Shown: positions 1,688 to 30,742 of the stretch, piece by piece
Layout: every line of letters begins with the position of its first letter
How positions within the stretch are numbered: position 1 is the first letter of the stretch
Assembly (NCBI GenBank): GCA_963718915.1
Contig: CAVRAI010000007.1
Coordinates: 210,001 to 242,000 of the forward strand
DNA from: an uncultured Chloroflexia bacterium
GTDB lineage: Bacteria; Chloroflexota; Ktedonobacteria; Ktedonobacterales; JADMIN01
Direction of reading: 5' to 3'
Length of the DNA: 32,000 nt
Program-made: the position numbers and the translations under genes
The notes under the pieces: model-generated
The model's database searches: none
The model's input: the letters and a program-made list of their open reading frames with translations, nothing else
What the model was told of the DNA's origin: nothing

Positions 1688-3682
1688 ATGAGCGCGTTTC
1701 GTGCCACCTTCGTCAGTCATGCCCACGCCGATAATGACCTCTGCGACCGCTACGTCGCCGCGTTGCGGCCACGAGGCATTGATATCTGGTATGATCGCGA
1801 CAACGCGCAGAATGGCCATCTGCTCGGCTCAGAAATCCAGAAGGAGATACAGCAGCGCGCGGCCTTTGTGCTGCTCATGACGGAGAACGCGCTCGGCTCC
1901 TTCTGGGTGGATCTGGAGATGCAGAGTTATCTGGGGCTAATGGCGCAAGATCGTTCGCGACTGCTGCTGCCTGTGCGCATCGGTTCCTGCGCCGTGCCGC
2001 CGTTTCTCAACGCCTTCTTCTGGATCGACGCGCAAGCGATGCCTTTCGAGCAAGCGATTGAGGCCATTGCCTCTGCACTCTCGGACAGCACTATGCCATC
2101 CGCGCAGCCAAGAGCTTTGCCCGCTACCTCGTCCCCGGTCAACGCGCCAGCGCCACAGACGCCCACCGACCCTGTCAGCGACCTGCTGGCGCGTTTCCTG
2201 CCGCAGTTGCGCGATGCCTTCAATGCGCAGGACTGGCCCCAGGTGGCGCGACTGGCCGCCTTCATCCAGCGCAGCGTCCCCGCCGAGAAGCTGCCCAGCG
2301 AGGTCTACGCCATGCAGGGGCGGGCGCTGATGGCCGAGCGTGACTATGCCGGAGCAAAGACCGCCTGGGACACCATACGGCAGCGCGACTCGCTCGATGT
2401 GACGGCGCTACGGGCCGCCACCGATGCCCGTATCGCGCTGGGCGAGAAGGCCGCCGCTCTGCCGCTGCTCGACGATGCGCTCACGCTCACCACCGACCGC
2501 GCTCAACGGCTGGCGCTCTTGCGCATCGATGCCAGCGTGCTCGCTGAGGTCGCACGCGCTGAGAGTGGGGCAAGCGCCCAGACCCACTGGACGACGCTGC
2601 AGCGCGTCGTCAACGAGGGTCTGCAACTGGCGGGTGAGCAGGATGCTGATTGGCTGGCGCTCAAACTGGAAGCGTTGATGGGGCTGCAACACGATCAAGA
2701 GGCGTTGGATTTGGCAAGAACGCTGACTGCGCTTCCCGGCGCGACCGCCACCCTCTGGATGAACCGGGCACGGCTGGCATGGAAGCTGGCGGGCGAGACG
2801 CCGAACGACGAGATACGCGGCGCGCTGGACGCTGCCAGCCGTCTGGCTCCCAATGACGCCGCCCTCGCATTGGATCGCCAGCAATTGCTGGTTATCCTCA
2901 AGCCCGACCGCTTCCCGCCGCGCCTGGCAGAACAGGGCTTTGTTGTCCGGGAGCGCAATGGCGTCGCCTTCATTGTGCCGCCGATCTGCTCCGTACCTGC
3001 GGGCGAGTTCCTGATGGGTAGCAACAAGCGCCGGGACAAAGATGCGATTAACGACCATGAAATGCCACAACACCGCGTCACCCTCGCCGCCTTCTCCATC
3101 ACGCGCTTCCCGGTGACAGTGGCCGAATATGCCTGCTTTGTCGCAGCGGCGCGACACCGCGAACCGCAGGAGTGGGCAGGCCAACTGAAGAAACTCGACT
3201 ATCCCGTCGTTTCCGTCTCCTGGGATGATGCCATCGCCTACGCCGCATGGCTGGCGCAAATGAACGAGCAACCCTGGAGGCTGCCGACCGAGGCGGAGTG
3301 GGAGAAAGCGGCGCGTGGGACAGATGGGCGTCTCTTTCCCTGGGGCAATACGTTCGACCGGAGTCGTGCCAATACAGTTGAAAGCAGGCTACGCGGAGCA
3401 ACGGCGGTGGGCAGCTACCCGAGTGGGGCCAGCCCTTATGGCGCAGAGGAGATGGGAGGAAACGTCTGGGAGTGGACGCACAGCCTCTACAAGCCGTATC
3501 CCTACAAGATAAGGGATGGCCGCGAGGCGCCTGATTCCGATGAAGATCGTGTGCAGCGTGGTGGTTCCTGGTATGCCATCGACGTCGGCGCGCGTGCTGC
3601 CACCCGACTAAGCGCCAGTCCAGATCGCTGCAAGGACTACGACGGTTTCCGCCTGCTCCTTGAGGCGCCTGGTTCGGCATAG
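1688..3682 (+). CDS. TIR domain - Pro-rich linker - TPR-like helical repeats - FGE-sulfatase (SUMF1-like) domain fusion protein
   Basis: The N-terminus FVSHAHADNDLCDRYVAALRPRGIDIWYDRDN...AFVLLMTENALGSFWVDLEMQ has a bacterial TIR pattern including the W-x-x-x-E glutamate. The middle about 230 aa is Ala/Leu-rich helical repeat. The C-terminus PAGEFLMGS...VSWDDAIAYAAWL...WRLPTEAEWEKAARG...GNVWEWT...RVQRGGSW...GFRLL is the classic FGE-sulfatase fold signature. There is no Walker A motif anywhere. Confidence 0.85.
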   Translation: MSAFRATFVSHAHADNDLCDRYVAALRPRGIDIWYDRDNAQNGHLLGSEIQKEIQQRAAFVLLMTENALGSFWVDLEMQSYLGLMAQDRSRLLLPVRIGSCAVPPFLNAFFWIDAQAMPFEQAIEAIASALSDSTMPSAQPRALPATSSPVNAPAPQTPTDPVSDLLARFLPQLRDAFNAQDWPQVARLAAFIQRSVPAEKLPSEVYAMQGRALMAERDYAGAKTAWDTIRQRDSLDVTALRAATDARIALGEKAAALPLLDDALTLTTDRAQRLALLRIDASVLAEVARAESGASAQTHWTTLQRVVNEGLQLAGEQDADWLALKLEALMGLQHDQEALDLARTLTALPGATATLWMNRARLAWKLAGETPNDEIRGALDAASRLAPNDAALALDRQQLLVILKPDRFPPRLAEQGFVVRERNGVAFIVPPICSVPAGEFLMGSNKRRDKDAINDHEMPQHRVTLAAFSITRFPVTVAEYACFVAAARHREPQEWAGQLKKLDYPVVSVSWDDAIAYAAWLAQMNEQPWRLPTEAEWEKAARGTDGRLFPWGNTFDRSRANTVESRLRGATAVGSYPSGASPYGAEEMGGNVWEWTHSLYKPYPYKIRDGREAPDSDEDRVQRGGSWYAIDVGARAATRLSASPDRCKDYDGFRLLLEAPGSA

Positions 3683-3741
3683 TGGCGCAAACGATTAGTA
3701 AACCTTCAGAAGTGATCCCGGACAGTCTGCTGTGGCGAATC

Positions 3742-3816
3742 GCGCCGTAGCCTGAAGGCCACGGCTAATAGAACGGGGAAATTCGACATTGCGTTTACGC
3801 TACGGTCGGTCTGCCT
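3742..3816. repeat. Dispersed intergenic repeat module ('gcctgaaggcc..cggc ... attcg..gcgtttacgctacgg')
   Basis: Closely related copies were seen by eye at 5293..5357, 8686..8750 and 14402..14435 (partial). All copies are intergenic. Confidence 0.7.
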
Positions 3817-5362: not shown

Positions 5363-5608
5363 GTTTTCAATTTACGACGGGCACGCCTCAACGGCTGGCG
5401 GTTAAAACCGCGCCTGAAGGGCCTCGCTTGCTGCGCGCGCTCTGCCACGAAACCCGCCTGCGCGGGTTCACAGAGCTACTCGCCAGCGGGTATCCCGTTG
5501 GGACACGTCTGGGAAGTCCGCGCAGGCGGACTTGGCGGCCGCAGGCCCTTCAGGCGCGGTTTCAACCGCCCGCGCTGCCCAGCGCGTGTCCCTCGTAATT
5601 TCTAAAAC
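5363..5608. mobile_element. MITE-like nested-palindrome element of about 246 bp, copy 1
   Basis: Terminal inverted repeats are gttttcaatttacgacgggcac (5363..) and gtgtccctcgtaatttctaaaac (..5608). Inner inverted arms are ggcggttaaaaccgcgcctgaagggcc (5397..5423) and ggcccttcaggcgcggtttcaaccgcc (5544..5570). It is collinear with 14125..14373. It has no coding capacity beyond spurious ORFs. Confidence 0.7.
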
Positions 5609-5945
5609 GCGTTCACGCTACGGTCTGCCTCGCCCGCCACAGCGCGCGGTGTGCGGAGGAAACAGTGAGCGTTCATTGATGCGCTGAGTGTAGCGCATAG
5701 CGAGTTCAGGGAGAAATCCCGCCAGACGCGGTTGACCGGCCAGTGTCGGCGCGGTAAAGTTCATAGTTAGACCACCGTCAAACAGAGGTCCAACATACAG
5801 CGCAGTGTTTTCGGCAGAAAGCAGGGAGGGTCTCGTGTATTCCTGTGGCTATGGCAACATGTCGCGGCGTCTGTTCGGCGCCATCGGGCTTGGGCTGGAG
5901 AGCGGCGAGATGGGCGCCAATGGAGTCAATGGAGTCAATGGCGCG

Positions 5946-8562
5946 ATGAGCTTCTCGCTGCCGGGCGATGCGCCGCGCTATGCGCCTGATCGCAAGGCGG
6001 ACGTGCGCCACATAGATCTCGACGTGACGCTTGACTTCGACGCGGCGAGTGTCGCTGGCACGGTCACCACCAGTTTTGAGACGCTCTTCGAGGAGGTGAG
6101 CGAGATCACCCTCGACGCCGCCGAACTGGAGATCGAGACGGTGACGATGGCGGGCAAGAAGACGCCGCTGCGCTTCTGGAGCGAGGGCGAGAAGCTGCAC
6201 ATCGCCCTCAACCGCACCTACCATCACGGCGAGCCATTCGGCGTCGCGGTACGCTACAGCGCGCAGCCGCGCACGGGCCTCGTCTTCGTCAAGCCGACGG
6301 CGGGCGACCCGGAACTGCCGGTGCAGGCGTGGACGCAGGGCGAGACCGAGTACCATCACTTCTGGTTCCCCTGCCACGATTTCCCCAACGACCGCGCCAC
6401 CACCTCGCTCCGCGCGACCGTCCCCACCGGCTTCTTCGTGCTCTCCAACGGCAAGCTCGAAGGCGTCAGCGAGACGGGTGATGGCCATAATACGTGGTCA
6501 TGGCGCATGGAGGAGCCGTATCCCGCCTATCTGATTACCCTGGTGGCGGGCGAATTCACCGAGTTGAAGGACTCCTGGCGCGATATTCCGGTTAACTACT
6601 ACGTGCCGAAGGGGCGCGAGGCCGACGGCCACTTCATGTTCGATAAGACGCCCGCGATGATCGAGTATTTCTCCGAGCGCTTCGGCGTGGACTATCCCTA
6701 CGAGAAGTACGCGCAGATCGTCGCCGAGCAGTTTACCGGCGCGATGGAGAACGCCAGCGCCACCACCCACAGCTATCGGCTGCTGCCCGACGCGCGCGCC
6801 ATCCTCGACTACACGCCGGAGCCGGTGGTCGCGCACGAGCTGGTGCACCAGTGGCATGGCGATATGCTGGCGGTGCGCGACTGGGCGCATACGTGGCTCA
6901 AGGAGTCGTCGGCGGACTTCTACGAGGCGACCTGGCGCGAGCATTCGGATGGCGTGGACGAGTTCCGCACGGAGATGCGCGACTACCTCCAGGCGTATCT
7001 GGAGGCCGACGCGCGCGGGCGGCGCCCCATCGTCTACAACGTCTATCGCAAGAACGGCAACGAGCTATTCGACCGCCACGTCTACGAGAAGGGCGCGCTG
7101 ACGCTCAATATGCTGCGGTTCGTCGTCGGCGAGGAGCCATTCTGGCGCGCCGTCAAGCTCTACACGCGGCGCAACCAGTGGCGCGAGGTCATCACCGCCG
7201 ACCTGGAGCGCGCCTTCGAGGAGGCCACCGGGCGCAGTCTGGCGCGCTTCTTCGAGCAGTGGCTCTACAAGGCGGGGCATCCCGAGTTCAACGTGCGCTA
7301 CTCCTGGGACGACGAGCACAAGCTGGCGCGGGTGACAGTGCGCCAGACGCAGGAGGAGACGGCGCAGACGCCGATCTTCGTGACGCCGGTGGATATCGCC
7401 TTCATGGTACCGGAGAAAGACGGCGCGCGCGGCGACGATCCCAAGGCGAAGGCGACGCTGACGACCTTCCGGGTGCAGGTGGATACGGCGGAGCAGACGT
7501 TCTACTTCCCGCTGCCACGGCGGCCGTTCTCGGTGCGTTTCGATCAGGGCGGCTGGCTCATCAAGACGCTGGACTTCGAGCGGCCCGCCGAGATGCTGCG
7601 CTACCAGCTTGCGCACGATCCCGACGTGCTGGGGCGGATCGAGGCGGCGGAGGCGCTGGGGCGGCTGGCCGATCCACAGAGCATCACGGCGCTGGAAACG
7701 CAGTTGATCGAGGAGTCGTTCTGGTCGGTGCGCGGGGCGATTGCCGAGGCGATAGGGCGGCAGCGCAACGAGCGCGCGCTCAACGGCGCTGACTGGCGCG
7801 CTGGAGCAAGGTGGATGAGCCAAAGGCGCGGCGGGCCATCGTGGCGGCGCTGGGCGTCTTCCACGCGCCGGAGCAGGCGGCGCTGGCCGAGCGCGCGGCG
7901 GCTACCCTGACGGCGCTGCTGGACGAAGGGCGACCCGAGCTACTTCGTGGAGTCGGCGGCGGCGACCGCGCTGGGCAAGACGAACGTCGCCGACGCCTAT
8001 GAGCGGCTGCGTGCCCCTGCTCGACCGCGCCTCCTGGAATGAGACGATCCGCGCGGGCGTCTTCGCCGGGTTGGGCGCGCTGGGCGATCCCCGCTGTGTA
8101 GAGACGCTGACGGGCTGGCTCGATCTCTCGAAGCCGCAGGACGCGCGGATGGTCGCGGCCAACGGGCTGCGCATTCTGGCGACGACGCGGCGTATCGAGG
8201 GCGAGGCGCAGGTGCGCGCGGTAGATGCGCTGATCGCGGCGCTCGACGATCCCTGGGAGCTGGCGGTCTTCCAGGCTATCGCGGCGCTAGCGGCCTGGGG
8301 CGATCAGCGGGCGATTCCGGCGCTCCAGCGGCTGGTGGATCGCAGCCCCGACGAGCGGGCGGTTCGTGGGGCGCGGACGGCCATCCGCACGCTGCAACAG
8401 GGGCGCGCGGCGGGCGATGAGACGCGCCAGCTGCGCAAAGACCTGGAGGAGCTACGCCAGCGCAACCGCGAGCTGACCGAGCGCTTGGAGGCGCTGGAGG
8501 CGCAGCATCCGCCAGCGGCAACGGCTACGTGCCCGGCGCGATACGGCTGTCGCCGCCACTAA
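5946..8562 (+). pseudogene. M1-family aminopeptidase N with C-terminal HEAT-repeat/coiled-coil region, interrupted by three apparent frameshifts
   Basis: Contains the GAMEN motif (FTGAMENASATTH) and the zinc motif HELVHQWHGDML...WLKES. The reading frame switches at about 7790-7795, about 7928-7931 and about 8010. The reconstructed sequence reads ...ERALNGA/LARWSKVDEPKARRAIVAALGVFHAPEQ...LLDEG/DPSYFVESAAATALGKTNVADAYERL/VPLLDRASWNETIRAGVFAGLGALGDPRCVE.... The start at ATG 5946 (MSFSLPGDAPRYAPD) was chosen over the upstream in-frame ATGs. Confidence 0.8.
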
Positions 8563-8640: not shown

Positions 8641-8797
8641 ATGTCGTTTTAGCAGTAACACCGTACAGCGTGCCTGGGCGAGCGAGCCGGAGCCTGAAGG
8701 CCCCGGCGAATGGGGCGGGAAATTCGCCGTAGCGTTTACGCTACGGGCGCTCACCCCACCGCAATGCCCGTGTCCGTCGCACATGCTAAAACGACAT
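8641..8797. mobile_element. MITE-like element of 157 bp with perfect 14-bp terminal inverted repeats (atgtcgttttagca / tgctaaaacgacat)
   Basis: The terminal inverted repeats were read directly at 8641..8654 and 8784..8797. The interior contains the 'gcctgaaggccccggcgaat...attcgccgtagcgtttacgctacgg' module shared with 3742..3816 and 5293..5357. Confidence 0.65.
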
Positions 8798-8875
8798 AAA
8801 CCGCGCCTGAAGGGCCTGCGGCCACGAAGTCCGCCTGCGCGGACTCATCCAGACGTTGCCCTCTACGATTGTCTT
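8798..8875. repeat. Half-copy (one arm) of the 246-bp palindromic element, inverted orientation
   Basis: aaaccgcgcctgaagggcctgcggccacgaagtccgcctgcgcggactcatccagacgt matches the reverse complement of 5495..5570. Its first 31 nt are identical to the reverse complement of 11347..11402. Confidence 0.7.
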
Positions 8876-8918: not shown

Positions 8919-11142
8919 CTATTCCTCGCCCCAGATAGTCGCTGCCTTATCATCGATAACAACAAGTCGTCCCCCGCCAGGGGACCAAGTACCGGGGATG
9001 GAGTAGAAGTTACCAATCTCCTGTCCGTTTTCCGCGTCCCACATCACTGGTCTTTTGAACATGTAACCGACGAGCCGCCTTCCATCAGACGACCATGATA
9101 TGTCGCTAATATGTTTGCCATAGCCAGCCAGAGTGGCGATAGTGGCGATGTCTCGCCCGCTGGCTGGTTCCCAGACTCTTGCCGAATCAAGGTTTGTGGT
9201 CTTATTTTCGCCGCAGATGGCCAGCCGTGCGCCATCGGGCGACCAGGCGAGCGTATTCACCTTCTCAAGGTGCTGGGCGAGGGTGACAAGTGAGCGTCCG
9301 CTAGACACATCCCATACCTTCGCGCCCTCTGCGCTGGCAGTGGCAAGTCGAGTACCATCAGGAGACCATGCCACAGGATTATGTCCACCGGAAAGGACAG
9401 CTAGAGATCGCCCACTAGCTGCGTCCCACACTCGTGCACTGTACGAGTTGGAAGTGACAAGCCGTGTCCCATCGGGCGACCATACAGCGGATGCCGGGGA
9501 GACATAGCCATAGGGGGCGTAGTTGGTGGTGTCAGTCGCAGTTAAGGTGGTGAGCAAACGTCCACTGGCTGCATCCCAGAGCTGGTCTCCAGAACTACTA
9601 GTAGTAGCGAGCCAACGCCCATTTGGCGACCACGCCAGAGATCACGTCCCTTGGGAGCCAATTGTGGCCAGCACCTGCCAGCGTTAGTCATGCCGTAGAT
9701 CTGGGATCCAGTGTTTAGCGTGGTCATACGAACGCGTGATCCACCGCCTCCGACGGCAAGTCTGGTGCTGTCGGGCGCCCATACAACAGCACTGGCACTA
9801 CCATACATCGTTTGCGGGACAGCTAGTGTGCCGAGTAGTCGTCCAGAGGCCGTATCCCACACCTGCACGCCATCTGTACTGACAGTGGCGAGCAAGGCGC
9901 CGTTAGGAGACCATAATGGGCTGCCTAGTTGGCCGCTGTGACCTGAAAGGGTAACTAACGGCACGAAATGCGGGAACTCAAACCGCCAGTGTGCGATGGT
10001 GGAAGGGTCAACGCCAGCAGACGTTGCGGCGTTGAGCAGGGCGCGGTAGGTGAGCCAGTTTTTGCTGTCCCATGTACCCCTAGCCGCTGATGAGATCGCA
10101 GAGTGCCAGGCAGGCAGCACCAACGTGGCATCTACCCCTGCGGGTAGCATAGGTAACGCGCGAGCTGCCGCGACAGATTCGTCGTAACGCTGAGCAATCA
10201 ACAATGCCTCTATCTCACGCAATGCCCAGCGTGGGTCGTCTGGCGCCATGCGGCGGGCATCGCTCACACGGCGCGCGAAATCGTCCCAGCGATTTAGGCG
10301 GGCCAGCGCGGCAGTCAACTCTTCGAGGATGGCCAGGCGGGTAGTGGTGTCGTCGAGCGATGCAAGCGCAAAGGCGCGGGTAAGAATCTCCACTGTCTGC
10401 CCATCATTGCCAGCCCTGGCGGTGAGTCGCACATACAGCAGCAAAGTATCGGCGTCGTCAACGCCCGCTTTGAGCGCCTGCTTGATGACCGCCAATCCGC
10501 CGTTATTGTCACCAATGGCAAAAGCGGCTGAAGCGCGCTCACGCCAGAGCACCGGTGTCATCGCACCTCGCTCAACCAATATCTCCGTCTTATCGAGCAC
10601 ATCAGACCAGTGTTCGCGGGCATAGGCAGTATGAATTTCTCGTGCCAGCCGTTCGTTAGGCGAGAGCGGGCGGTTGGGATCTGGGGCAGTGGAGCTAGCA
10701 GTCACAGTCGGCGCGTTTGGGTCGGCGCCAATGGCGCGCAACACCTCAGCCAGCGAGGCGGCGTAGTGCGCGGGGTCATCGGCCTGGGTAAAGTCAAACT
10801 CCTGGACACTTTCCCAGTCTGGGCGACGCGGCGAGTGGAGCAAGGCGTAATCGGCAGCAGGTGCTTGCCAAGCTCGACGCTCTGGCGGAAAGCGATCTTC
10901 ATTTCCTGCGGCACCCACTTGGATTCTGAAGCATGAGGCGAGAGGACGACGAGGAAATACGGGCGTTCAGTGATCTCGGCAATGATACGATCCCACCAGT
11001 CGTCGCCGCCATGCAGCCCACCGGATGTGTCGTACCAGACGGCATCCTCACCCAGATTGGCGCGCAAATCGGCAATCAAACGCAGGCAGAAGGGGTCATC
11101 CTGATGGCTGTGACTCACAAAGAGCAGGCGTGATGTATCCAT
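8919..11142 (-). pseudogene. TIR domain - helical (TPR-like) repeats - WD40 beta-propeller protein, disrupted by at least 2 frameshifts and possibly an in-frame TGA
   Basis: Three collinear ORFs cover the gene. The first, 10702..11142, is the TIR domain (MDTSRLLFVSHSHQDDPFCLRLIADL...FLVVLSPHASESKWVPQEMKIAF). The second, 9542..10918, holds the helical repeats and then WD40 (LWSPNGALLATVSTDGVQVWDTASGRLL). The third, 8919..9557, is WD40 (AWSPDGTRLATASAEGAKVWDVSSGRSL, etc.). The first frame switch is at about 10845 (reconstructs LLPITP/LLHSPRRPDWESVQEFDF). The second lies within 9557..9683. The best WD40 fit (QVLATIGSQGT*SLAWSPNGRWLATT) additionally implies a TGA at the complement of 9642..9644. 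The start ATG (complement of 11140..11142) follows GGAAGGGAG. Confidence 0.8.
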
Positions 11143-11346
11143 GTACCGCGAATCTCCCTTCCAGTCTGTCTGTTCGTGAAGTACGTACAGGCATTGTAGC
11201 CCAGAAGTGAGTAGGCGTAAAGGACGTGTATTCCCAATAAGCGGTAATGATAGCAATGTGGCGCAAAAAGGCGGATAGAGGGAGCGCGTCACTACACGCG
11301 CCAGAACTGGAGTCGCAACGGCGGACCGCAGAGTGCGTCTCTCTGG

Positions 11347-11402
11347 AACCTGCGCAGGCAGGTTTCGTGGCCGCAGGCCCTTCAGGCGCGGTTTCAACCG
11401 CC
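11347..11402. repeat. Half-copy (one arm) of the 246-bp palindromic element, direct orientation
   Basis: aacctgcgcaggcaggtttcgtggccgcaggcccttcaggcgcggtttcaaccgcc is similar to 5512..5570 and 14277..14335, and is the inverted partner of 8798..8846. Confidence 0.7.
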
Positions 11403-11417
11403 AGCCACCTTCAACTG

Positions 11418-14013
11418 CTAATCATCCCTTGCGCCCGGTGCGCCCAGGATGCGCTGGCGGCTTCGGCGGCTTCGGCGCTTCCCGGCTGGCGCGACGTCGG
11501 AAAGCTTCTTCGCGGTTGGCTCGCGCCGCTCGGCGGAAAGCACGCCCGAAACGCCACGTATCTCGCGCAGGATATTTTCCAACTCCTCGGGATGGCGGAT
11601 TTCGAGCACCGCGTTGATGACCGCGCGCTCAGGCCGGTGGCGGGTCACCACCTCCACCCGCAGCATATTGATCTTCGCCGCCGGAGATCACGCCCGTCAC
11701 GTCGCGCAGCAGCCCCGTCCGATCCGTGCCCTCGACGATGATCGGCGCGCGGAAAGTCTCGTCGCCTTCGAGCCGCGGCCAACTGACCGCGATGCCGCGC
11801 TCCGGCTGGCGCGCCAGCAGCGACCGCAGATTCGGGCAGTCGGCGCGGTGGATGACCACGCCCCGGCCCCGCGTGACAAAGCCGTAGAGATCGTCGCCCG
11901 GCAAGGGACTGCAACAGGTGGCGAGGTGCGTCATCATGCCGCCCATCCCCTCCACGCTGACGCCAACCTCCGACTCGCGCGTGGGCAACGTCTGCGGCAG
12001 TTGCTCCGGTTTCGCTTCCTCCGGTGGGCGCAGCCGCTCGCGCAACTTCGCCAGCACCGCCGCCATCCGCAGTTTGTCCGCGCCCAACGCCACCAGCAGC
12101 GACTCCACATCGGACTGCTTCAACTCCTGGGCGAGCCATTCGAGATCATCTTCGGGCAGGTCGTCGAGACCCTTACGCAGGCCCATCGAACGCAGCTCGC
12201 GATCCAGCCGCTCGCGTCCCATCTGGAGGTCGATGTCGCGCTCGTGGCCTTTGAGATACTTCAGGATGCGGTCGCGGGCGACCTTCGTGCGCACAATCTT
12301 GAGCCAGTCGCGCGTGGGGTGGGCTTCATTGCGCTTGAGAATCTCGATCACGTCGCCGTTCTTCAGCACGTAGTCCAGCGGCACCAGCTTCTTGCTCAGC
12401 CGCCCCATGCCATCGTCCGAGGTGATGCGCACCCCGGCGACATGCAGCCCCAGGTCGGTATGCACGCGGAAGGCGAAGTCGAGCGGCGTCGAGCCAGCCG
12501 GAAGCTCCCTGGCGTCACCAGCGGGCGTGAAGACGTATATCTGCTCGCGCAGAACATCGCCTCTCACGGCATCCAGCGCGCGCTGGGTCGCCGTCGAGCC
12601 GGGCGAGTGCAGCTCCTGCTGCCAGTCCTTCACCTGTTGCACCCAGGATTGCAGCGGTCGCGCCGTCGCTTTGGCGCTGTCGCCAGCATCCTTGTAATAC
12701 CAGTGCATCGCGACGCCGTACTCCGCCATCTCATGCATCTCGCGCGTGCGAATCTGAATCTCGGCAAGCTGGTCGTCCAGGCAGAAGACGGTGGTATGCA
12801 GCGACTGATAGCCGTTGGGCTTGGGGCTGGCGATGAAGTCCTTGATGCGCCCATCTTTGGGACGCCACAACTCATGCACATGTCCCAGCACCAGATAGCA
12901 TTCGCCGACGCTGCCGACGATGATGCGGAACGCCAGCATGTCATAGAGCGAGGACAGGTCGTGGCTGCCGGTGCGCTGCACCTTCTTGTAGATGCTGTAG
13001 AGATGCTTGACCCGGCCCGATATCTCGGCGGTGATGCCGATCTTCTGCATCTCCTCACGCAGCATCGCGATGACCCGGCGCACATAGCGGCTGCGGCCCT
13101 CGGTCTCCTCGGCGACGGCGTCGCGCAACCAGGCGTACTCCTCCGGCTCCAGCACCGCGAAGGCCAGGTCTTCCAGCTCGCCCTCGACACGCCCCATGCC
13201 AAGCCGTCCGGCGAGTGGCGCGAAGATCTCGCGCGTCTCCTGCGCCATAATGCGGCACTCATCCAGACTGTATGCCGGTGTCACTGTCGCCTCTTGCGAT
13301 GAAGCGGTCTCGCCGTTATGCCCGTTTCCATTCGCCGCTTGCGCGTGCCAGTAGTCCGCCGCCGTCAACACCTCACGCATCAGCCGCAGGTGATCGGCGA
13401 TCTTGATGACGACGACACGCGGATCCTCGGCCATCGCGACAAACATCTTGCGCAGGGCGTCGGCGTCCTGCTGGCGTTGGCGCGCCCGTCCGCGCCGCCG
13501 TTCGCGCGGCACGTCGTCTGGCTCAACGCTGCTCTGGGCGCTGCTCTGGGCGCTGCTCTGGGCGCTACGCCGCAGGGCAACCGCCGGGCGCTGCAGGGCG
13601 TCGAAGCGCTCCAGGCTGGCGATGGTCTCCGCGACCTGCTCGCCGAACTCGCCGCCCAAACGCTCGCGCACTTCGCCGAGGTCAACCAGCCGCGCCCCGA
13701 CGACCTGATCGAGCAGCACCGCCGCCAATGTGATCGCGTCGATATGCAGCGCCTCGGCCAGCGTCTGGGCGACCGCCAGCACGTAGGCGAAATCCTGGCG
13801 CAAGACGCCCGTCGCCCGCTCGTCGGTTGCTCCGGCGCTCTCCACGCGCGCCTGAAGCGCTATGCGGATGGCCGTCTCGACGTTGGCGACATCGTGGGGT
13901 GGCAGATAGCCGACGATGGTCTGCCGCAGACGCTCCGCGCCCGCATCGAGCAGGAGGCTCGGCGGGATGGCGGAAGGCTCGGATTGTGCTGATTGCAGCG
14001 CATCGGTATCCAT
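11418..14013 (-). CDS. Long RelA/SpoT homologue (RSH) 1: degenerate HD domain, intact (p)ppGpp synthetase, TGS, CC/zinc-finger and ACT domains; one frameshift before the ACT domain
   Basis: Synthetase motifs are intact: GRVKHLYSIYKKV, YDMLAFRIIV, GYQSLHTTV, LAEIQIRTREMHEMAEYGVAMHWYYK. TGS is present (IYVFTPAGDARELPAGSTPLDFAFRVHTDLG). The HD motifs are replaced: ...FAYVLAVAQTLAE...AAVLLDQVVGARL, and IADHLRLMREV instead of LADRLHNMRT. The frame switches at about 11683 (GVIS/AAKINMLRVEVVTRHRPERAVINAVLEIRHPEELENILREIRGVSGVLSAER). Confidence 0.88.
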
Positions 14014-14124
14014 ACGAAACCACCAGACATGTATGTGTACGCGGGTTATCTCTCTCTACAAGCATTGCGGGTCATTGTCGTCGTTGGGCAAGGCGGATGG
14101 TTGGCCACCTGCGCGGCATGATGA

Positions 14125-14373
14125 ACGTTCACAATTTACGAGGGACAGCCACGCGGCTGGCGACTGAAGTCGCGCCTTGAGGGCCTCGCTGACGCTCCGC
14201 CACGAAACCCGCCGTCGCGGGTTGCACAGAACCGCTCACCAGTAGTAACACTGTAGGGATACGGTCTGAGAAGTCCGCGCAGGCGGACTTGGTGGCCGCA
14301 GGCCCTTCAGGCGCGGTTTTAACCGCCCGCGCACCCCACGCACCCCGCGCATGTCCCTCGCAATTTCTAAAAC
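14125..14373. mobile_element. MITE-like nested-palindrome element of about 249 bp, copy 2
   Basis: Collinear with 5363..5608. It shares the same terminal inverted repeats (gttcacaatttacgagggaca / tgtccctcgcaatttctaaaac), the same inner arms (gaagtcgcgccttgagggcc / ggcccttcaggcgcggttttaaccgcc) and the gaagtccgcgcaggcggactt hairpin. It lies between the two RSH genes. Confidence 0.7.
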
Positions 14374-14401
14374 TACATCAGCCTACGGTATGGGAACCTC
14401 A

Positions 14402-14435
14402 CCCATTCGCCGTAGCGTTTACGCTACGGCCTGCC
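14402..14435. repeat. Partial copy of the 'attcgccgtagcgtttacgctacgg' repeat module
   Basis: cccattcgccgtagcgtttacgctacggcctgcc is near-identical to 8721..8748. Confidence 0.6.
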
Positions 14436-14461: not shown

Positions 14462-16675
14462 CTAACGCGGAACGTTCTCGCAGCCGTTGCGCTGGTCGCG
14501 CTCCACCTGGGTGACGCCCTGCACCGTCCGCAGTCGGCGCATCACCTGCTCGCGCCGGGTCGTCGGCAGCATGTCCAGCGTGAGGAGGATCGCCGCCTTA
14601 TAGCGATCCTGATGAGCGATGGCCACACTGCGATAAACGTTCAATCCTAATTGTGCCACACACTCAGAAACCTGGTGCATCAACCCCTGGTGATCCTGCC
14701 CATAGATAGCGAACGCCATGCGGTACGGCATCGTGGGAAGCTGATCCCAGCGCACCTGCACCGTCCCATCATTCGTCGTCCCGCGCGCGAGTCGGCGATC
14801 CAGCGTCATGCGCAGCGTGCGGCAACAGGTGCGGTGGATCGTGACGCCGCTGCCACGGTCGGCGACGCCAAGAATAGCGTCACCAGGACACGGGAAGCAA
14901 CAGCGGGCGAACTGCACCTGCGCCAGCCGCCCGGAGGGGTGGCGCAAGGGCTGCGGGCGTGGTGGCTCGCCTGGGAGCGCGCCGCTACTGGCCCGTTGCT
15001 GGCTGCGTAGCGAGCGGTTGATGCGCTCGCGGGCGGTGCGGGTGGTGACGATGGTGAGCCATTCAGGTCGCGGAACCGCCTCAGCGCTGGTGAGTATGCG
15101 TACGACATCGCCCGTCCTCAGCGCGTAGTCCAGCCCCACCGCGCGCGAGGTCAGCACCCCCTGCCGCGTGTTGCGCTGGATGATCGCTCCGGCGGCATGG
15201 CTGCCAATGTCGGTATGAATCTGATAGGCGAGGTCGAGCACCGTCGCCCCAGGGGGAAGCTCGCGCACATCCCCTTTGGGGGTAAAGATAAAGATCTGGT
15301 CTTCCAGCACCTCGCCGCGCAGCGCCTCCAGAAAGTCCGCCGCGCTCAGCCGCAGCTCGTCCTGCCAGCGCCCCAGTTGCGAGACCCAATCGGGCAGATG
15401 CGCCAGCCAGAGCGCCGAGGTCACTGGCTCCCGCTCGCCTGATTCGGCGCGTTCCAGCCAGGTGGTGGCGATACCGTGCTGGGTGGCGATATGCATCGAG
15501 TGGGTGCGGATGTGCATCTGGGCGAGGCGGCCATCGAGGGCGAAGACGGCGGTGTGGAGGGAGCGATAACCATTGATCTTGGGTCCGGCGATGTAGTCGC
15601 GAATGCGTTCCAGGTATGGATGCCAGAGCTGGTGAATGATGCCGAGCGCCGCGTAACACTGCTCCGAGGTGTTGACCAGAATGCGGAAGGCAAACACGTC
15701 GTGGAGCTGCGCGACATCCATGCCGGTCTCCTGCGTCTCCAGATACGCGCGGTAGGGACGCTTGACGCGCCAGTTGACCGCCGCCGGGATGCCGCTCGCC
15801 AGCAGTTCGTGCGCCATTCGCTCGCACATGCGCTCGGCCCAGCGCAACCGTTTCGCTTCTTCCTCGCGTAACCGTTTAACGGTGCGTTCGTACTCCGCGG
15901 GCATCAGGAAGGAGAAGGCCAGGTCTTCCAGTTCGGACTGAAAAACATGGACGCCGATGCGTCCGGCGAGTGGCGCGTATAGCTCGATGGTCTCGCGCGA
16001 CTTCTGTTCGCGTTTGATAGGCGTCTGTGCAGCCATCGTGCGCATGTTGTGTAGCCGATCCGCCAGCTTGAGCAGGACGATGCGCGGGTCGGCGACCATC
16101 GCCAGAAAGAGCTTGCGCACGGTCTCGGCCTGCTCGCGGAGCTTGCGCGCGCGCGCCGCCTGTGGGTCAACGGCGCCGTCTAGCGCTGGCGTGGGCAGAA
16201 CCGCAACCGGAGCTACCTCACCACTGCCCTTCTCACCTTTGTCGCCCCTGGTGTCCTTGGGCGTCTCCACCGCGTCGAACTTGGTGACGCCGTCCACAAT
16301 CGCTGCGATCACCGGCCCAAACTGCTCGCTCAAACTGTCAAGTGTAATCGTCGTGTCCTCAACGGTATCGTGGAGCAGCGCCGCGGCGATCCCCTGCGCG
16401 TCCATCGCCAGTTCCGCGAGAATCCCGGCCACCGCGATGGTATGCTCGATGAACGGCTCGCCTGACCGGCGCATGACGCCCGCATGCGCCGCCTCCGCCA
16501 CCTGGTACGCCTCGTGGATGAGAGCGAGGTCGTCGTCGTTCATGTACAGCGAGCAGAGGCCAAGCAGCGCGCTCAGGCTCGGCGATTGAGCCATCATGGG
16601 CTGATCGTCGGTCTGTGGCTCGCTCATAGGTTGGCTGCCTTCGGCTCGGTGATCGAGCGGTGCGTCGGTGCGCAT
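14462..16675 (-). CDS. Long RelA/SpoT homologue (RSH) 2: intact HD hydrolase, synthetase-like domain with substituted catalytic motif, TGS, CC and ACT domains
   Basis: The HD domain is intact: HAGVMRRSGEPFIEHTIAVAGILAEL...AALLHDTVEDT and LADRLHNMRTM. The synthetase region reads RVKRPYRAYLE, HDVFAFRILV, GYRSLHTAV, LAQMHIRTHSMHIATQHGIATTWLER, so the E-x-Q-IRT glutamate is Gln and AEYGVAAHW is lost. TGS is present (IFIFTPKGDVRELPPGATVLDLAYQIHTDIG) and the ACT domain is at the C-terminus. The true start may be the internal ATG giving MSEPQTDD (complement of 16628..16630). Confidence 0.88.
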   Translation of the reverse strand: MRTDAPLDHRAEGSQPMSEPQTDDQPMMAQSPSLSALLGLCSLYMNDDDLALIHEAYQVAEAAHAGVMRRSGEPFIEHTIAVAGILAELAMDAQGIAAALLHDTVEDTTITLDSLSEQFGPVIAAIVDGVTKFDAVETPKDTRGDKGEKGSGEVAPVAVLPTPALDGAVDPQAARARKLREQAETVRKLFLAMVADPRIVLLKLADRLHNMRTMAAQTPIKREQKSRETIELYAPLAGRIGVHVFQSELEDLAFSFLMPAEYERTVKRLREEEAKRLRWAERMCERMAHELLASGIPAAVNWRVKRPYRAYLETQETGMDVAQLHDVFAFRILVNTSEQCYAALGIIHQLWHPYLERIRDYIAGPKINGYRSLHTAVFALDGRLAQMHIRTHSMHIATQHGIATTWLERAESGEREPVTSALWLAHLPDWVSQLGRWQDELRLSAADFLEALRGEVLEDQIFIFTPKGDVRELPPGATVLDLAYQIHTDIGSHAAGAIIQRNTRQGVLTSRAVGLDYALRTGDVVRILTSAEAVPRPEWLTIVTTRTARERINRSLRSQQRASSGALPGEPPRPQPLRHPSGRLAQVQFARCCFPCPGDAILGVADRGSGVTIHRTCCRTLRMTLDRRLARGTTNDGTVQVRWDQLPTMPYRMAFAIYGQDHQGLMHQVSECVAQLGLNVYRSVAIAHQDRYKAAILLTLDMLPTTRREQVMRRLRTVQGVTQVERDQRNGCENVPR

Positions 16676-27227: not shown

Positions 27228-27776
27228 GTGACTGTTCCGCCTTCCTGGCAACAACCACCGAATGAACAACAGCCACCATGGCCTGGCTATGCGCCGCAAC
27301 CGCCAGCGTCGTATATGAGTAGCCGATGGGGACCATCGAGCAGCGGCATGGAGCCGAATACTGTAGCTGGCCTGTCATATCTCATTGGTCTCTTCGCGAT
27401 CATCTTTCTTTTCCTGGAGAAGCGGAATCACTTTGCGCGTTTCCACATCATTCAAGCATTGTTGCTCCGGGAAGTCTTCTTCATTCTAGGAGTGGTATGG
27501 GTCATCGCGTTCTACGCGATTGCTATTGCGTTGATCAGTTCACCCGGTGCCTATGACGGCACACCAGGATCTGCCATTGGGCCAGGAATCTCTCTGCTCT
27601 GCCTCTGTTACGGCGCCATCTTGCTAGCCGATTTGCTTGCGACGATTTGGGGGATAGTCGCTGGCTTCCGGGGACAGATGGTCAGGTTCCCAGGCATTGG
27701 CGATTTGGCCGAGCGCTGGGCTGGCGGGCCAGTCGTTCCGTTTACCGCGTCTGCGCCTCCGCAGCCAGTGAATTAA
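27228..27776 (+). CDS. DUF4870-like small integral membrane protein, paralogue 1
   Basis: The Pro/Gln-rich N-terminus is followed by GMEPNTVAGLSYLIGLFAIIFLFLEKRNHFARFHIIQALLL plus further TM segments, and then FPGIGDLAERWAGGPVVP. It has a GTG start with GAGGAG upstream. Confidence 0.75.
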   Translation: MTVPPSWQQPPNEQQPPWPGYAPQPPASYMSSRWGPSSSGMEPNTVAGLSYLIGLFAIIFLFLEKRNHFARFHIIQALLLREVFFILGVVWVIAFYAIAIALISSPGAYDGTPGSAIGPGISLLCLCYGAILLADLLATIWGIVAGFRGQMVRFPGIGDLAERWAGGPVVPFTASAPPQPVN

Positions 27777-27982
27777 CGCAGCCCGCAGTGCAGTCGCCCG
27801 CCTCATCACTCCCAGCGCGACAATACTTCTTCACGGACTCCCGGTCGGTGGCCGCGGGATTGCTGTATAGTGGGGTGTGTCAGAGAGTTTGGCGGAATCA
27901 GACGACGTGACGTAACGAGTGCGCGATATAGTCTTTGGGCACGATTCGCAAAGGATCGCTCTGGGCAGAAAGGGACGTCATT

Positions 27983-30542: not shown

Positions 30543-30742
30543 GCGGCTAAAGCCGCGCCTAAGGGACACGCTTGCGTGTCCACAAAGCCTGCCTCCGCAG
30601 GCTCCAGAGAAGCGCTCGCCAGGATTAGCCGTGCCTAATGTCGTTTAACATGTTGTTCGGGTAATCCATGAGGCGCGTCTGCCTCTGGTGAGCCCGCGCA
30701 GGCGGGCTTGGCGGCGCAGCCCTTAGACGCGGCTTTAGCCGC
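30543..30742. mobile_element. MITE-like nested-palindrome element of 200 bp with 23-bp terminal inverted repeats
   Basis: gcggctaaagccgcgcctaaggg (30543..30565) pairs with cccttagacgcggctttagccgc (30720..30742) with 1 mismatch as a reverse complement. Internal hairpins are ggacacgcttgcgtgtcc, agcctgcctccgcaggct and gcccgcgcaggcgggc. It is a sequence variant of the 5363..5608 family. Confidence 0.65.

What the first reader, a model, noticed from the sequence alone, without database searches (positions are those of the whole stretch)
1688..3682. Intact TIR-helical repeat-FGE/SUMF1 fusion lacking any NTPase: candidate single-chain sensor-effector of a conflict/immunity system
The protein has three parts. 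The N-terminal TIR domain keeps the W-x-x-x-E glutamate context (SFWVDLE) that corresponds to the catalytic Glu of NAD+-cleaving bacterial TIRs. It is followed by about 230 aa of TPR-like helices. The C-terminal domain has the full FGE-sulfatase fold signature (WRLPTEAEWEKAARG, GNVWEWT, RGGSW, GFRLL). In that domain the position of the catalytic Cys pair of true formylglycine-generating enzymes reads YAIDVG, with no cysteines. The SUMF1-like domain is therefore most simply a ligand-binding module rather than an enzyme. TIR effectors fused to repeat or lectin-like sensor domains are a recognised theme in computational surveys of conflict systems in multicellular bacteria. To my knowledge this TIR-TPR-FGE combination has no experimentally defined function. 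It is not embedded in an obvious operon: its neighbours are a divergent DDN reductase and a convergent fabH.
Basis: partly seen in the sequence, partly recalled or inferred. Interest (0 to 1): 0.7.

Follow-up and report, generated by a model that had tools for sequence, protein, structure and literature searches.

The report
TIR effector fused to hypervariable sensor
This intact gene encodes a likely cell-suicide enzyme domain (TIR) joined to a lectin-like sensor; in related bacteria a dedicated retroelement deliberately hypermutates that sensor's binding site, so it belongs to a recently described class of antibody-like bacterial immune receptors, none of which has been tested experimentally.

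Summary
ORF 1688-3682 (+) encodes 664 aa: TIR_2, a TPR-like helical region and an FGE-sulfatase fold, with no NTPase. The TIR glutamate (E77) sits in the W-x-x-x-E motif. The FGE catalytic cysteines are absent.

"YAIDVG" is the first of three hypervariable patches (aa 629-652) in an otherwise conserved domain. Their residue and codon spectrum (NNC; Y/C/F/S and D/G/V/A columns) is the footprint of adenine-directed mutagenesis by a diversity-generating retroelement (DGR).

A template repeat (TR) predicted from that spectrum found 24 metagenome stretches, and 19 had adenine-specific TR/VR (variable region) partners. Four homologues have a sequence-verified TR/VR cassette next to RT + bAvd (one target cut at its N terminus). 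A fifth, the closest full-length homologue, sits next to RT + bAvd by gene annotation only.

The window copy stands alone. There is no RT, Avd or TR in 32 kb, and none of 29 recovered TRs is its cognate. Current diversification is therefore unresolved.

The best reading is a cytoplasmic single-chain sensor-effector from a family expanded in Ktedonobacterales. DGR-diversified lectin-fold sensors with TIR are already described. I rate it a new member of a known kind, of moderate interest.

The parts
1688..3682 (+). Complete ORF, 664 aa, encoding the TIR / TPR-like / FGE-fold (CLec) protein. It is identical to database protein P0001.
   Evidence: ORF; 100% hit to P0001 on a 497,667-bp contig held by NCBI and ENA; domains
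1709..2065 (+). TIR_2 domain (aa 8-126), the predicted NAD+-consuming effector.
   Evidence: Pfam TIR_2 E 4e-18. PADLOC hits cover only this part (SAVED_TIR, ThsB, TIR-NLR). PDB hits are PdTIR 3h16 and AbTir 7uxr/7uwg/8g83.
1898..1918 (+). SFWVDLE, the W-x-x-x-E motif. W73 and the putative catalytic E77 (codon 1916-1918).
   Evidence: E77 aligns with the motif glutamate of AbTir, PdTIR and TcpB. It is invariant in 34 relatives and at least 90% conserved in 60. AbTir W204/E208 are functionally required (PMC10641520).
2078..2182 (+). Pro/Ser/Ala-rich linker (aa 131-165), probably flexible.
   Evidence: Composition. In short-form relatives a linker of about 55 aa joins TIR directly to the FGE fold.
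2183..2914 (+). Ala/Leu-rich helical middle domain (aa 166-409). It is TPR-like and restricted to this lineage.
   Evidence: Weak TPR_16 hit. TPR families are detected in relatives. The profile hits only TPR proteins in the PDB. Only 52 of 1.84 billion representative proteins match at E<=1e-3.
2987..3658 (+). FGE-sulfatase / C-type-lectin-fold domain (aa 434-657), the sensor module. It is not a formylglycine-generating enzyme.
   Evidence: Pfam E 2e-50. NCBIfam EgtB, SenA, GldK and PvdO all score far below their cutoffs. PDB relatives include the non-catalytic SUMF2 and the DGR variable protein TvpA 2y3c. No catalytic cysteine pair.
3572..3643 (+). VR-like segment (aa 629-652). Three hypervariable patches (629-634 YAIDVG, 641-644 LSAS, 647-652 RCKDYD) are separated by an invariant framework (A635, R636, A638, R640, P645).
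   Evidence: Column entropies above 3.2 bits against a conserved domain. K/E/Q/M/W are depleted, 6.7% against 26.8%. 13 of 18 codons are NNC against 37% C at third position in the rest of the gene, p 0.0024. The segment is homologous to verified VRs in L094, L113, L114 and L115.
3664..3682 (+). 3' end GGCGCCTGGTTCGGCATAG (encoding PGSA-stop). It resembles the VR-side homing element (CTGG version) seen at the ends of verified VRs.
   Evidence: In L094, L113 and L114 the VR ends ...GG(C/G)GGCTGGYWCA while the TR reads ...GG(C/G)GGATGAYWCA. 50 of 107 relatives keep a GS in the short tail after GFRL. The functional status of this element in the window is inconclusive.

Best explanation
The gene encodes a cytoplasmic single-chain sensor-effector. 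Its C-terminal FGE-sulfatase fold is a C-type-lectin-fold binding domain, not an enzyme. The ligand-contacting surface is built from three hypervariable patches (aa 629-652) of the kind written by a diversity-generating retroelement (DGR).

In a DGR, a reverse transcriptase copies a template repeat (TR) with errors at adenines, and the copy replaces the variable region (VR) at the 3' end of the target gene.

The N-terminal TIR domain keeps the catalytic W-x-x-x-E glutamate. It is expected to consume NAD+, or make cyclic ADP-ribose-type signals, once several copies are brought together. The TPR-like middle region is proposed to hold the protein inactive or to mediate self-association, standing in for the STAND NTPase switch found in related sensors.

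Proposed sequence of events: an invader-derived (or other non-self) molecule binds the variable surface; receptors cluster; a composite TIR active site forms; NAD+ is lost; the cell arrests growth or dies, protecting clonal neighbours in a filamentous bacterium.

What is shown:
- the domain architecture and the conserved glutamate;
- the absence of the FGE cysteines and of any NTPase;
- the hypervariability with an adenine-mutagenesis footprint;
- physical linkage of same-architecture homologues to RT + Avd + TR cassettes with adenine-specific TR/VR mismatches.

What is inferred: ligand binding, oligomerisation, NADase activity and an immune role.

The window copy itself is standalone. I put the chance that a distant DGR in its genome diversifies it today at about 0.3. 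Otherwise it is a dispersed paralogue that keeps a specificity once generated this way.
For: Architecture: TIR_2 + FGE-sulfatase, no NTPase. In 60 relatives FGE is found in 60, TIR_2 in 57 and an NTPase in none. There is no transmembrane segment or signal peptide.

TIR: E77 aligns with the W-x-x-x-E glutamate of AbTir, PdTIR and TcpB and is conserved.

Sensor:
- The domain is highly conserved except at aa 629-634, 641-644 and 647-652.
- Those columns are dominated by D/G/Y/S/N. K/E/Q/M/W make up 6.7% there against 26.8% at other variable columns.
- Column 639 is Y/C/F/S (TNC) and column 646 is D/G/V/A (GNC).
- Window VR codons are NNC in 13 of 18 cases against 37% elsewhere, p 0.0024. Pooled standalone genes give 71/92 against 1177/3073.

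Prediction test: a TR pattern deduced from these spectra found 24 metagenome stretches. In 19 of them there is a partner copy whose mismatches fall almost only at adenines of the matched copy.

Cassettes with the same kind of target:
- P0002: 63% identical over the full length, followed by RVT_1 and bAvd; annotation only, no DNA.
- L094: middle domain + FGE target (N terminus cut by the contig end), 43% identical, then RT, bAvd and TR; 12 of 13 mismatches at A.
- L113: in complete genome CP126532.1, TIR-TPR-FGE of 824 aa, then RT, bAvd and TR.
- L114: short TIR-FGE form; 15 of 15 mismatches at A.
- L115: TIR-TPR-FGE of 637 aa, collinear with the window protein; 14 of 16 at A.

Sequence similarity to the DGR variable protein TvpA. 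The concept has precedent in PMC8195603, PMC10907252 and PMC7517822.
Against: No biochemical or genetic test exists for this protein or any relative.

The window has no RT, Avd or TR in 32 kb. None of 29 recovered TRs is cognate to its VR: the best identity at non-adenine positions is 0.76, against 0.98-1.00 for true pairs.

The window VR keeps no AAC or AAT codon and has four codons outside the NNC pattern (TAT, CTA, AGT, AAG).

In the one complete genome examined, the standalone paralogue P0025 matches the resident TR at only 91% of non-A positions and has a 6-nt insertion. Standalone copies therefore need not be live targets.

Verified cis targets are followed by a conserved AT-rich stretch that the window lacks.

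The neighbourhood is housekeeping, not a defence island. The role of the TPR-like region is conjecture, and no structural model was obtained.
Confidence: 0.6

Rival explanations
1. Kin or self/non-self recognition. The variable lectin-fold surface senses polymorphic molecules of neighbouring filaments, and the TIR domain kills or arrests cells on contact with non-kin. This would be analogous to fungal heterokaryon incompatibility rather than anti-phage defence.
For: The named close homologues all come from Ktedonobacterales MAGs, a group I know as filamentous. There are several paralogues per genome: P0025, P0027 and the 824-aa cis target all lie in CP126532.1. Dore et al. raise this alternative explicitly for DGR-diversified sensors. 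The gene is not in a defence island.
Against: The protein has no signal peptide or transmembrane segment, so it would have to meet foreign molecules inside the cell. No partner polymorphic ligand gene is linked to it in any neighbourhood examined.
Confidence: 0.12
2. Tunable signalling or regulatory receptor. The variable domain binds an endogenous or environmental ligand. The TIR domain acts as a signalling-nucleotide synthase or a protein-protein adaptor feeding a separate pathway, without killing the cell.
For: Cyanobacterial DGR variable proteins with kinase, caspase-like and TIR-like N-terminal domains were interpreted as regulatory pathway tuning (PMC7517822). TIR domains can make signalling cADPR isomers (PMC10641520). 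The neighbours are housekeeping genes.
Against: No downstream receiver (for example a ThsA-like SLOG/Macro protein) is linked in the window or in any homologue's neighbourhood. The same variable domain is swapped onto NACHT, trypsin-NACHT and CHAT effectors typical of conflict systems.
Confidence: 0.12
3. Decaying relic. The gene is a dispersed copy of a former DGR target that no longer functions and is drifting.
For: There is no DGR within 32 kb and no cognate TR was found. The VR has non-NNC codons and no retained AAC. Relatives with damaged VRs exist: P0009 is frameshifted, and the L113 cis VR carries a net 18-nt deletion. Nearby genes in the window appear frameshifted.
Against: The 664-codon ORF is intact. 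All near-invariant family residues are kept: E77, W73 and the FGE framework including R624-W628, R636, R640 and G653-R655. Standalone paralogues are the majority of the neighbourhoods sampled and are likewise intact.
Confidence: 0.08
4. A real enzyme of the FGE/EgtB/ToxD superfamily (sulfatase maturation, sulfoxide synthase or similar) that happens to be fused to a TIR domain.
For: The best sequence matches among solved structures are enzymes or enzyme-like proteins: ToxD 7spq at E 1e-32, then OvsA, EgtB and FGE. Sources annotate relatives as 'SUMF1/EgtB/PvdO family nonheme iron enzyme'.
Against: The FGE active-site residues Cys336 and Cys341 (PMC4505483) have no counterpart, and the corresponding stretch is the most variable part of the family. 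EgtB, SenA, OvoA and PvdO models match only the C-terminal fold at a quarter or less of their cutoffs, and no DinB-type iron domain is present. No sulfatase, ergothioneine or toxoflavin genes are nearby. A catalytic pocket cannot be hypervariable.
Confidence: 0.03

Closest known systems
DGR-diversified CLec 'antigen sensors' of multicellular bacteria (Thiohalocapsa PB-PSB1 and relatives; Dore et al. 2024, PMC10907252)
   Same: A C-terminal lectin-fold domain carries a 3'-terminal VR. It is diversified by RT + Avd + TR and joined to immune-type effectors including TIR (for example a CHAT+TIR+CLec target). These occur in multicellular bacteria with several paralogues or loci per genome. Function is proposed, not tested.
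   Different: Most described cases include or neighbour a STAND NTPase or a MoxR-vWA ternary system. Here TIR is coupled to the sensor only through a lineage-specific TPR-like region. The lineage is Ktedonobacterales (Chloroflexota), and the window copy has no DGR within 32 kb.
Cyanobacterial multidomain DGR variable proteins, 'remote VPs' and 'VP homologs' (Vallota-Eastman et al. 2020, PMC7517822)
   Same: N-terminal signalling or effector domains (kinase, orthocaspase, TIR-like, TPR) are grafted onto a C-terminal CLec domain. Many paralogues are dispersed away from the RT, and most are cytosolic.
   Different: A different phylum, and a different interpretation (regulatory tuning). TIR is a minor class there, whereas it dominates the hit list here: 102 of the 120 listed hits carry TIR + FGE.
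STAND NTPase-FGS counter-invader systems (Kaur, Burroughs, Iyer, Aravind 2020/2021; PMC7159879, PMC8195603) and STANDs with FGE-sulfatase-like sensors (PMC13581612)
   Same: The FGS/FGE-like domain is always C-terminal, is proposed to bind invader molecules directly and is often DGR-linked. TIR is among the N-terminal effectors. The same sensor fold fused to NACHT appears among relatives here (P0084, L095, L111, L116).
   Different: The defining NTPase switch is absent from this protein and from all 60 relatives scanned.
Classical DGR variable proteins Mtd (Bordetella phage BPP-1) and TvpA (Treponema denticola, PDB 2y3c)
   Same: CLec / FGE-sulfatase fold with a C-terminal VR built on AAC-type template codons. 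TvpA is detectable by sequence (E 2e-6).
   Different: Those are surface or tail-fibre binding proteins without an enzymatic effector. This protein is cytoplasmic and carries a TIR domain.
Bacterial TIR NADases (AbTir, PdTIR, BtpA/TcpB, Thoeris ThsB)
   Same: TIR_2 fold with the W-x-x-x-E catalytic motif.
   Different: Similarity is low (E 2e-4 to 7e-3). There is no ThsA partner, and activation is presumably through the fused sensor.
Formylglycine-generating enzyme SUMF1 and its inactive paralogue SUMF2/pFGE
   Same: The overall fold and structural motifs (WEW, GGSW, GFR).
   Different: It lacks the Cys336/Cys341 equivalents. In this respect it is like SUMF2, which also lacks them (alignment). 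The active-site loop is replaced by hypervariable patches.

Membership tests
DGR variable protein (CLec/FGE-sulfatase-fold target) | C-terminal C-type-lectin / FGE-sulfatase fold domain ending at or near the stop codon | tested here: met
   Pfam FGE-sulfatase at aa 434-657 of 664; similarity to TvpA 2y3c
DGR variable protein (CLec/FGE-sulfatase-fold target) | Variable region whose variability is confined to template-adenine positions (first and second codon positions, NNC-type codons) | tested here: met
   Family columns 629-652. Window codons are NNC in 13 of 18 cases against 37% background, p 0.0024. This is a footprint, not proof of current activity.
DGR variable protein (CLec/FGE-sulfatase-fold target) | Cognate template repeat in the same genome, identical at non-adenine positions | tested here: inconclusive
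   No repeat of 3548-3682 in the 32-kb window. 29 TRs from other sources reach at most 0.76 identity at non-A positions. The rest of the source genome could not be reached.
DGR variable protein (CLec/FGE-sulfatase-fold target) | DGR reverse transcriptase and accessory Avd gene in the locus | tested here: not met
   No RVT_1 or bAvd among the window ORFs. This feature is met for homologues P0002, L094, L113, L114 and L115. Remote targets are known to lack it (PMC7517822).
DGR variable protein (CLec/FGE-sulfatase-fold target) | Homing element (IMH) at the 3' end of the VR, and downstream target-recognition structure | tested here: inconclusive
   The window ends GGCGCCTGGTTCGGCATAG, close to the VR-type ...GGCGGCTGGTTCA of verified targets. 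It lacks their downstream AT-rich stretch, and no shared hairpin could be defined.
Bacterial TIR NAD+ hydrolase | TIR fold above the family threshold | tested here: met
   TIR_2 at 66.4 bits against a cutoff of 28
Bacterial TIR NAD+ hydrolase | Catalytic glutamate in the W-x-x-x-E motif of the C helix | tested here: met
   W73 and E77 align with the motif in AbTir, PdTIR and TcpB. They are conserved in the family. Role of AbTir W204/E208: PMC10641520.
Bacterial TIR NAD+ hydrolase | NAD+ cleavage or cADPR-isomer production | not testable with these tools
   Requires an enzyme assay
Formylglycine-generating enzyme (SUMF1-type) | Active-site cysteine pair (human Cys336/Cys341) with Ser333/His337/Tyr340 | tested here: not met
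   No Cys between GGSW628 and R640, and no CxxxxC anywhere in the domain. The corresponding columns are hypervariable. Residue roles: PMC4505483.
Formylglycine-generating enzyme (SUMF1-type) | Genomic association with sulfatases | tested here: not met
   None in the window or in homologue neighbourhoods
EgtB / OvoA / SenA sulfoxide or selenoxide synthases | N-terminal DinB-like iron-binding domain plus a full-length model score | tested here: not met
   The models match only their C-terminal parts, at 47-101 bits against cutoffs of 360-420
STAND/NLR-like sensors with an FGS sensor (bNACHT, Avs-like, NTPase-FGS systems) | Central STAND NTPase (NACHT, NB-ARC, nSTAND) domain | tested here: not met
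   No NTPase family in this protein or in 60 relatives. The middle domain is TPR-like.
Thoeris (ThsB-type TIR with a ThsA effector) | Adjacent ThsA (SIR2/Macro-SLOG) gene | tested here: not met
   Only weak ThsB-model hits to the TIR part. No ThsA-like gene in the window.

The most novel reading that the evidence does not exclude
Ktedonobacterales maintain a repertoire of NTPase-independent, single-chain 'antibody-plus-executioner' receptors. One DGR cassette writes new binding surfaces into a TIR-TPR-CLec gene. Dispersed standalone paralogues such as the window gene are then either re-written in trans from a distant template or serve as an archived, germline-like library of specificities that the retroelement once generated. 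That would amount to a bacterial system combining somatic-style diversification with a heritable receptor repertoire, wired directly to NAD+ depletion.
Probability: 0.25. Interest if true: 0.7.

Novelty: new member of a known kind. Interest (0 to 1): 0.45.

Why it matters
DGR-diversified intracellular sensors are the only proposed bacterial counterpart of antibody-style anticipatory recognition, and none has been tested experimentally.

This family offers an unusually simple version: one polypeptide, no NTPase switch and no partner genes. It has a clear catalytic read-out (TIR, E77) and a compact variable surface of 18 codons. It is abundant in one cultivable, filamentous bacterial order.

That makes it a practical entry point for three questions:
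- what such sensors bind;
- how ligand binding switches on a TIR domain without a STAND module;
- whether dispersed paralogues are diversified in trans or are fixed copies.

For annotation, proteins labelled "SUMF1/EgtB/PvdO family nonheme iron enzyme" in these genomes are mislabelled, and some TR segments are called as spurious genes.

Tried and rejected
It returned only distant FGE domains from other phyla and no Ktedonobacterales or source genome. In hindsight the single protein would have given specific patterns, as.

2. Exact-protein look-ups of P0001 and P0074 were not on record. The listing of cluster members gave no accessions. The window could therefore not be tied to its assembly or to a resident DGR.

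3. No direct or inverted repeat of the ORF's 3' end exists in the window, and no RT or Avd is present.

4. The window VR was compared with 24 metagenome TRs and with the five TRs of L094, L113, L114, L115 and L116. None is cognate.

5. The search for a shared downstream hairpin or IMH structure was inconclusive.

6. The middle domain has no stretch conserved enough for pattern-based locus retrieval.

7. The Rfam scan of the window found nothing. The sigma-70 promoter scan found nothing, and the terminator-like sites were no more than expected by chance.

9. The viral-contig scan found only one distant FGE match, so there is no sign of a phage-borne origin.

10. I considered a third database search with a predicted TR peptide, to find a TR-derived ORF on the 497,667-bp contig. 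I judged the chance of success at about 10% and did not spend the shared compute.

11. The enzyme readings (FGE, EgtB/OvoA, ToxD-like) were rejected on the missing catalytic residues, sub-threshold model scores and the hypervariability of the would-be active site.
Full report
**Observation.** The ORF is real and intact: 1688..3682 on the + strand, ATG start, 664 aa. Pfam places TIR_2 at aa 8-126 (E 4e-18) and FGE-sulfatase at aa 434-657 (E 2e-50). The only other hint is a sub-threshold TPR_16 match at aa 209-268, and no NTPase family matches. PADLOC models match only the TIR part. NCBIfam models for EgtB, SenA, GldK, PvdO and OvoA match only the shared C-terminal fold, at a small fraction of their cutoffs. 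The protein has no hydrophobic segment long enough for a membrane span and starts directly with the TIR domain, so it is cytoplasmic. The neighbours are as described: a divergent HxlR/F420H2-quinone-reductase pair and a convergent FabH.

**A large family, mostly from one order.** A database search returned 157 relatives. Of the 120 listed, 102 carry both TIR_2 and FGE-sulfatase, and every hit that carries an organism name comes from Ktedonobacterales metagenome-assembled genomes. Two architectures exist. The short form (about 430 aa) joins TIR to the FGE fold through a linker of about 55 aa. The long form (620-825 aa), like the window protein, has a helical region of about 250-400 aa in between. 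The same FGE-type domain is also found behind NACHT, kinase, CHAT and nSTAND domains. Across 60 members no NTPase family is detected, while TPR families appear in some long forms. The helical region is lineage-specific: only 52 of 1.84 billion representative proteins match it at E<=1e-3. A profile of it hits almost only TPR proteins among solved structures (best E 5e-6). "TPR-like" is therefore reasonable but weakly supported, and I could not obtain a structural model.

**The FGE-like domain is a variable binding domain, not an enzyme.** True FGEs need Cys336 and Cys341, with Ser333, His337 and Tyr340 (PMC4505483). These lie just after the GGS(W/Y) motif. The window protein has no cysteine between GGSW628 and R640 and no CxxxxC pair in the domain.

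An alignment of 109 family domains is highly conserved except for three patches: aa 629-634, 641-644 and 647-652. Their column entropies exceed 3.2 bits. The residues between them (A635, R636, A638, R640, P645, G653, F654, R655) are nearly invariant.

The residues found there are mainly D, G, Y, S and N. K/E/Q/M/W, which NNC codons cannot encode, make up 6.7% at these columns against 26.8% at the other variable columns of the same domain. Fisher's test gives p about 2e-78, although the sequences are not independent. Individual columns show single-adenine signatures: column 639 is Y/C/F/S (TNC) and column 646 is D/G/V/A (GNC). This is the footprint of a diversity-generating retroelement (DGR). 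In a DGR, a template repeat (TR) rich in AAC codons is reverse-transcribed with errors at adenines, and the copy replaces the variable region (VR) of a lectin-fold target.

**A prediction that worked.** From the column spectra I wrote the expected template as TGG AAC AAC AAC NNN NNN AAC GCN CGN GCN GCC and searched metagenome contigs for it. It matched 24 stretches. In 19 of them the same contig holds a second copy, 78-94% identical, whose differences fall almost only at adenines of the matched copy (24/24, 22/22, 19/19, 12/13 and so on). The second copies lie at the 3' ends of FGE-fold genes.

One of these, L094, is a complete cassette. It has a target with the same helical + FGE layout (43% identical to window aa 138-658, E 6e-118; its N terminus is cut by the contig end). 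This is followed by an RVT_1 reverse transcriptase with YVDD, a bAvd protein and the TR. Other targets recovered the same way are NACHT-FGE and trypsin-NACHT-FGE proteins.

**Homologues sit in DGR cassettes.**
- P0002, the closest full-length relative (63% identity, 100% coverage), is followed after 98 nt by RVT_1 and then bAvd; no DNA was available for it.
- A search with the L094 RT found Ktedonobacterales RTs, including one in the complete 5.07-Mb genome CP126532.1. There an 824-aa TIR_2-TPR-FGE gene is directly followed by RT, bAvd and the TR (L113).
- L114 has the short TIR-FGE form in the same arrangement, with 15 of 15 TR/VR mismatches at adenines. Its Avd scores just under NCBI's DivGenRetAVD cutoff (78.1 against 80 bits).
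- L115 has a 637-aa TIR-TPR-FGE target that aligns collinearly with the whole window protein, including the W-x-x-x-E motif. 14 of its 16 mismatches are at adenines.
- Contig-length matches suggest two more pairs, P0005 with P0163 and P0088 with P0146.

TIR-(TPR)-FGE proteins are therefore the cognate targets of a DGR lineage in this order.

**Status of the window copy.** The window has no RT, no Avd and no repeat of the ORF's 3' end. The other 30 kb are housekeeping genes: two RelA/SpoT paralogues, TopA, HslVU, an aquaporin, an MFS transporter and others. Most homologues sampled are equally solitary.

The window VR carries the codon footprint as strongly as verified VRs. It has NNC in 13 of 18 codons against 37% C at third position elsewhere (p 0.0024), compared with 13/18 in L094 and 12/18 in L114. 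It ends with a CTGG-type element like verified VRs, where TRs read ATGA. Against that, it retains no AAC or AAT codon and lacks the AT-rich stretch that follows verified cis targets. It also matches none of the 29 TRs I recovered: non-adenine identity is 0.64-0.76, against 0.98-1.00 for true pairs.

In CP126532.1 the solitary paralogue P0025, about 25 kb from the cassette, matches the resident TR at 91% of non-A positions and 28% of A positions, with a 6-nt insertion. It is related to the TR but is not a current product of it. I could not reach the rest of the window's genome. I estimate a chance of about 0.3 that the window gene is diversified today. Otherwise it is a dispersed paralogue keeping a surface that was once generated this way.

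**The effector.** E77 aligns with the glutamate of the W-x-x-x-E motif in AbTir, PdTIR and BtpA/TcpB. In AbTir, W204 and E208 are required for NAD+ hydrolysis and cADPR-isomer formation (PMC10641520). W73 and E77 are at least 90% conserved in 60 relatives. Catalytic competence is thus plausible but untested.

**Mechanism (inferred).** A ligand binds the variable lectin-fold surface. Receptors cluster, possibly through the TPR-like region, which may also keep the resting protein inactive. TIR domains form a composite active site, NAD+ is consumed or a signal is made, and the cell arrests or dies, protecting clonal neighbours. The domain parts and their conservation are shown. Each step of activation is inference by analogy with TIR and STAND systems and with the proposals of Kaur et al. 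and Dore et al.. Alternatives are kin recognition, non-lethal signalling, a decaying relic and, least likely, an enzyme.

**Comparison with what is known.** The "FGS" domain as an invader-binding lectin-fold sensor, always C-terminal and often DGR-linked, was described for STAND NTPase and ternary systems (PMC7159879, PMC8195603). STANDs with FGE-sulfatase-like sensors appear in a 2026 survey (PMC13581612). Cyanobacterial DGR variable proteins with TIR-like N-terminal domains, "remote VPs" and "VP homologs" were catalogued in 2020 (PMC7517822). A CHAT+TIR+CLec target, and the idea of DGR-diversified antigen sensors in multicellular bacteria, were published in 2024 (PMC10907252). I found nothing in the searchable literature on Ktedonobacteria specifically. 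The large DGR survey could not see remote targets (PMC8144416).

The finding is therefore a new member of a known kind. It has an unusually minimal architecture without an NTPase and belongs to a family strongly expanded in one order. It fails the membership tests for FGE, EgtB/OvoA, STAND sensors and Thoeris. It meets the fold and footprint criteria of DGR variable proteins, but not (within reach) the TR and RT criteria.

**Limits.** There is no structure model and no access to the source genome or reads. The conservation statistics rest on related sequences. No experiment exists on any family member.

Noticed in passing
window 3741-3811, 5392-5629, 8683-8862, 11335-11413, 14119-14435, 30684-30720: A family of GC-rich palindromic intergenic repeats (core ...AAACCGCGCCTGAAGGGCCTGCGGCC...), present in both orientations with 86-97% complementarity between copies. 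One copy lies just downstream of the TIR-FGE stop codon. Similar sequence follows the homologous genes in L084 and L088, so the element seems widespread in Ktedonobacterales. It looks like a REP/MITE-type element and may act as a terminator.
   Followed up: partly
window 8919-11397 (minus strand): A second TIR gene lies 5 kb away. TIR_2 (E 7e-15) is followed by a middle region and WD40 repeats, but the reading frame switches twice (frames 0, 2, 1) with no homopolymer at the junctions. This is either a disrupted TIR-WD40 sensor-effector or assembly indels.
   Followed up: partly
window 5805-8562 (+): The M1 aminopeptidase ORF ends in an Arg/Ala-rich, junk-looking tail and is followed by a separate HEAT-repeat ORF (7999-8562). 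A frameshift near 7800-7900 probably splits one M1-HEAT gene.
   Followed up: no
window 11629-14013 and 14462-16675 (minus strand): Two tandem RelA/SpoT-family paralogues (HD + RelA_SpoT + TGS, one with ACT), separated by one of the palindromic repeat elements.
   Followed up: no
window 27273-28161: Pro/Tyr/Gly-rich tandem coding repeats (PPGYAPPP-like, 21- and 42-nt periods) at the N terminus of a DUF4870 protein (27935-28642). A 167-nt direct repeat occurs at 27300-27466 and 28151-28317.
   Followed up: no
L113 9714-9864 against 11569-11698 (CP126532.1); L081 2370-2522: Some VRs are damaged. The cis target next to the RT in the complete genome has a net 18-nt deletion with a locally shifted frame relative to its TR. 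P0009's gene is frameshifted across the end of its FGE domain. Either DGR targets decay often or these long-read assemblies carry indels.
   Followed up: partly
proteins P0003 (666 aa) and P0046 (416 aa); also P0049: A long-form and a short-form family member share an identical VR peptide (SYNAINARAAFRINGWPVNLDNYIGVRLALAAGSA). A third shares the framework. This suggests that one template serves genes of different architecture, or that the C-terminal module recombined recently.
   Followed up: no
L094 (rc 1767-1810), L113 9865-9900, L114 9853-9890: Verified cis targets are followed immediately by a conserved AT-rich stretch (GTTCTAATTTCT-like) ahead of the RT gene. Solitary paralogues, including the window gene, lack it. 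It may be a cassette promoter or part of target recognition.
   Followed up: partly
L113 11570-11872; L089, L096, L101, L104, L112 (ORFs over TRs): Template repeats are called as small 'genes' whose products look like Asn-rich FGE C-termini. Such spurious proteins are in public protein collections and could be used to find TRs by protein search.
   Followed up: no
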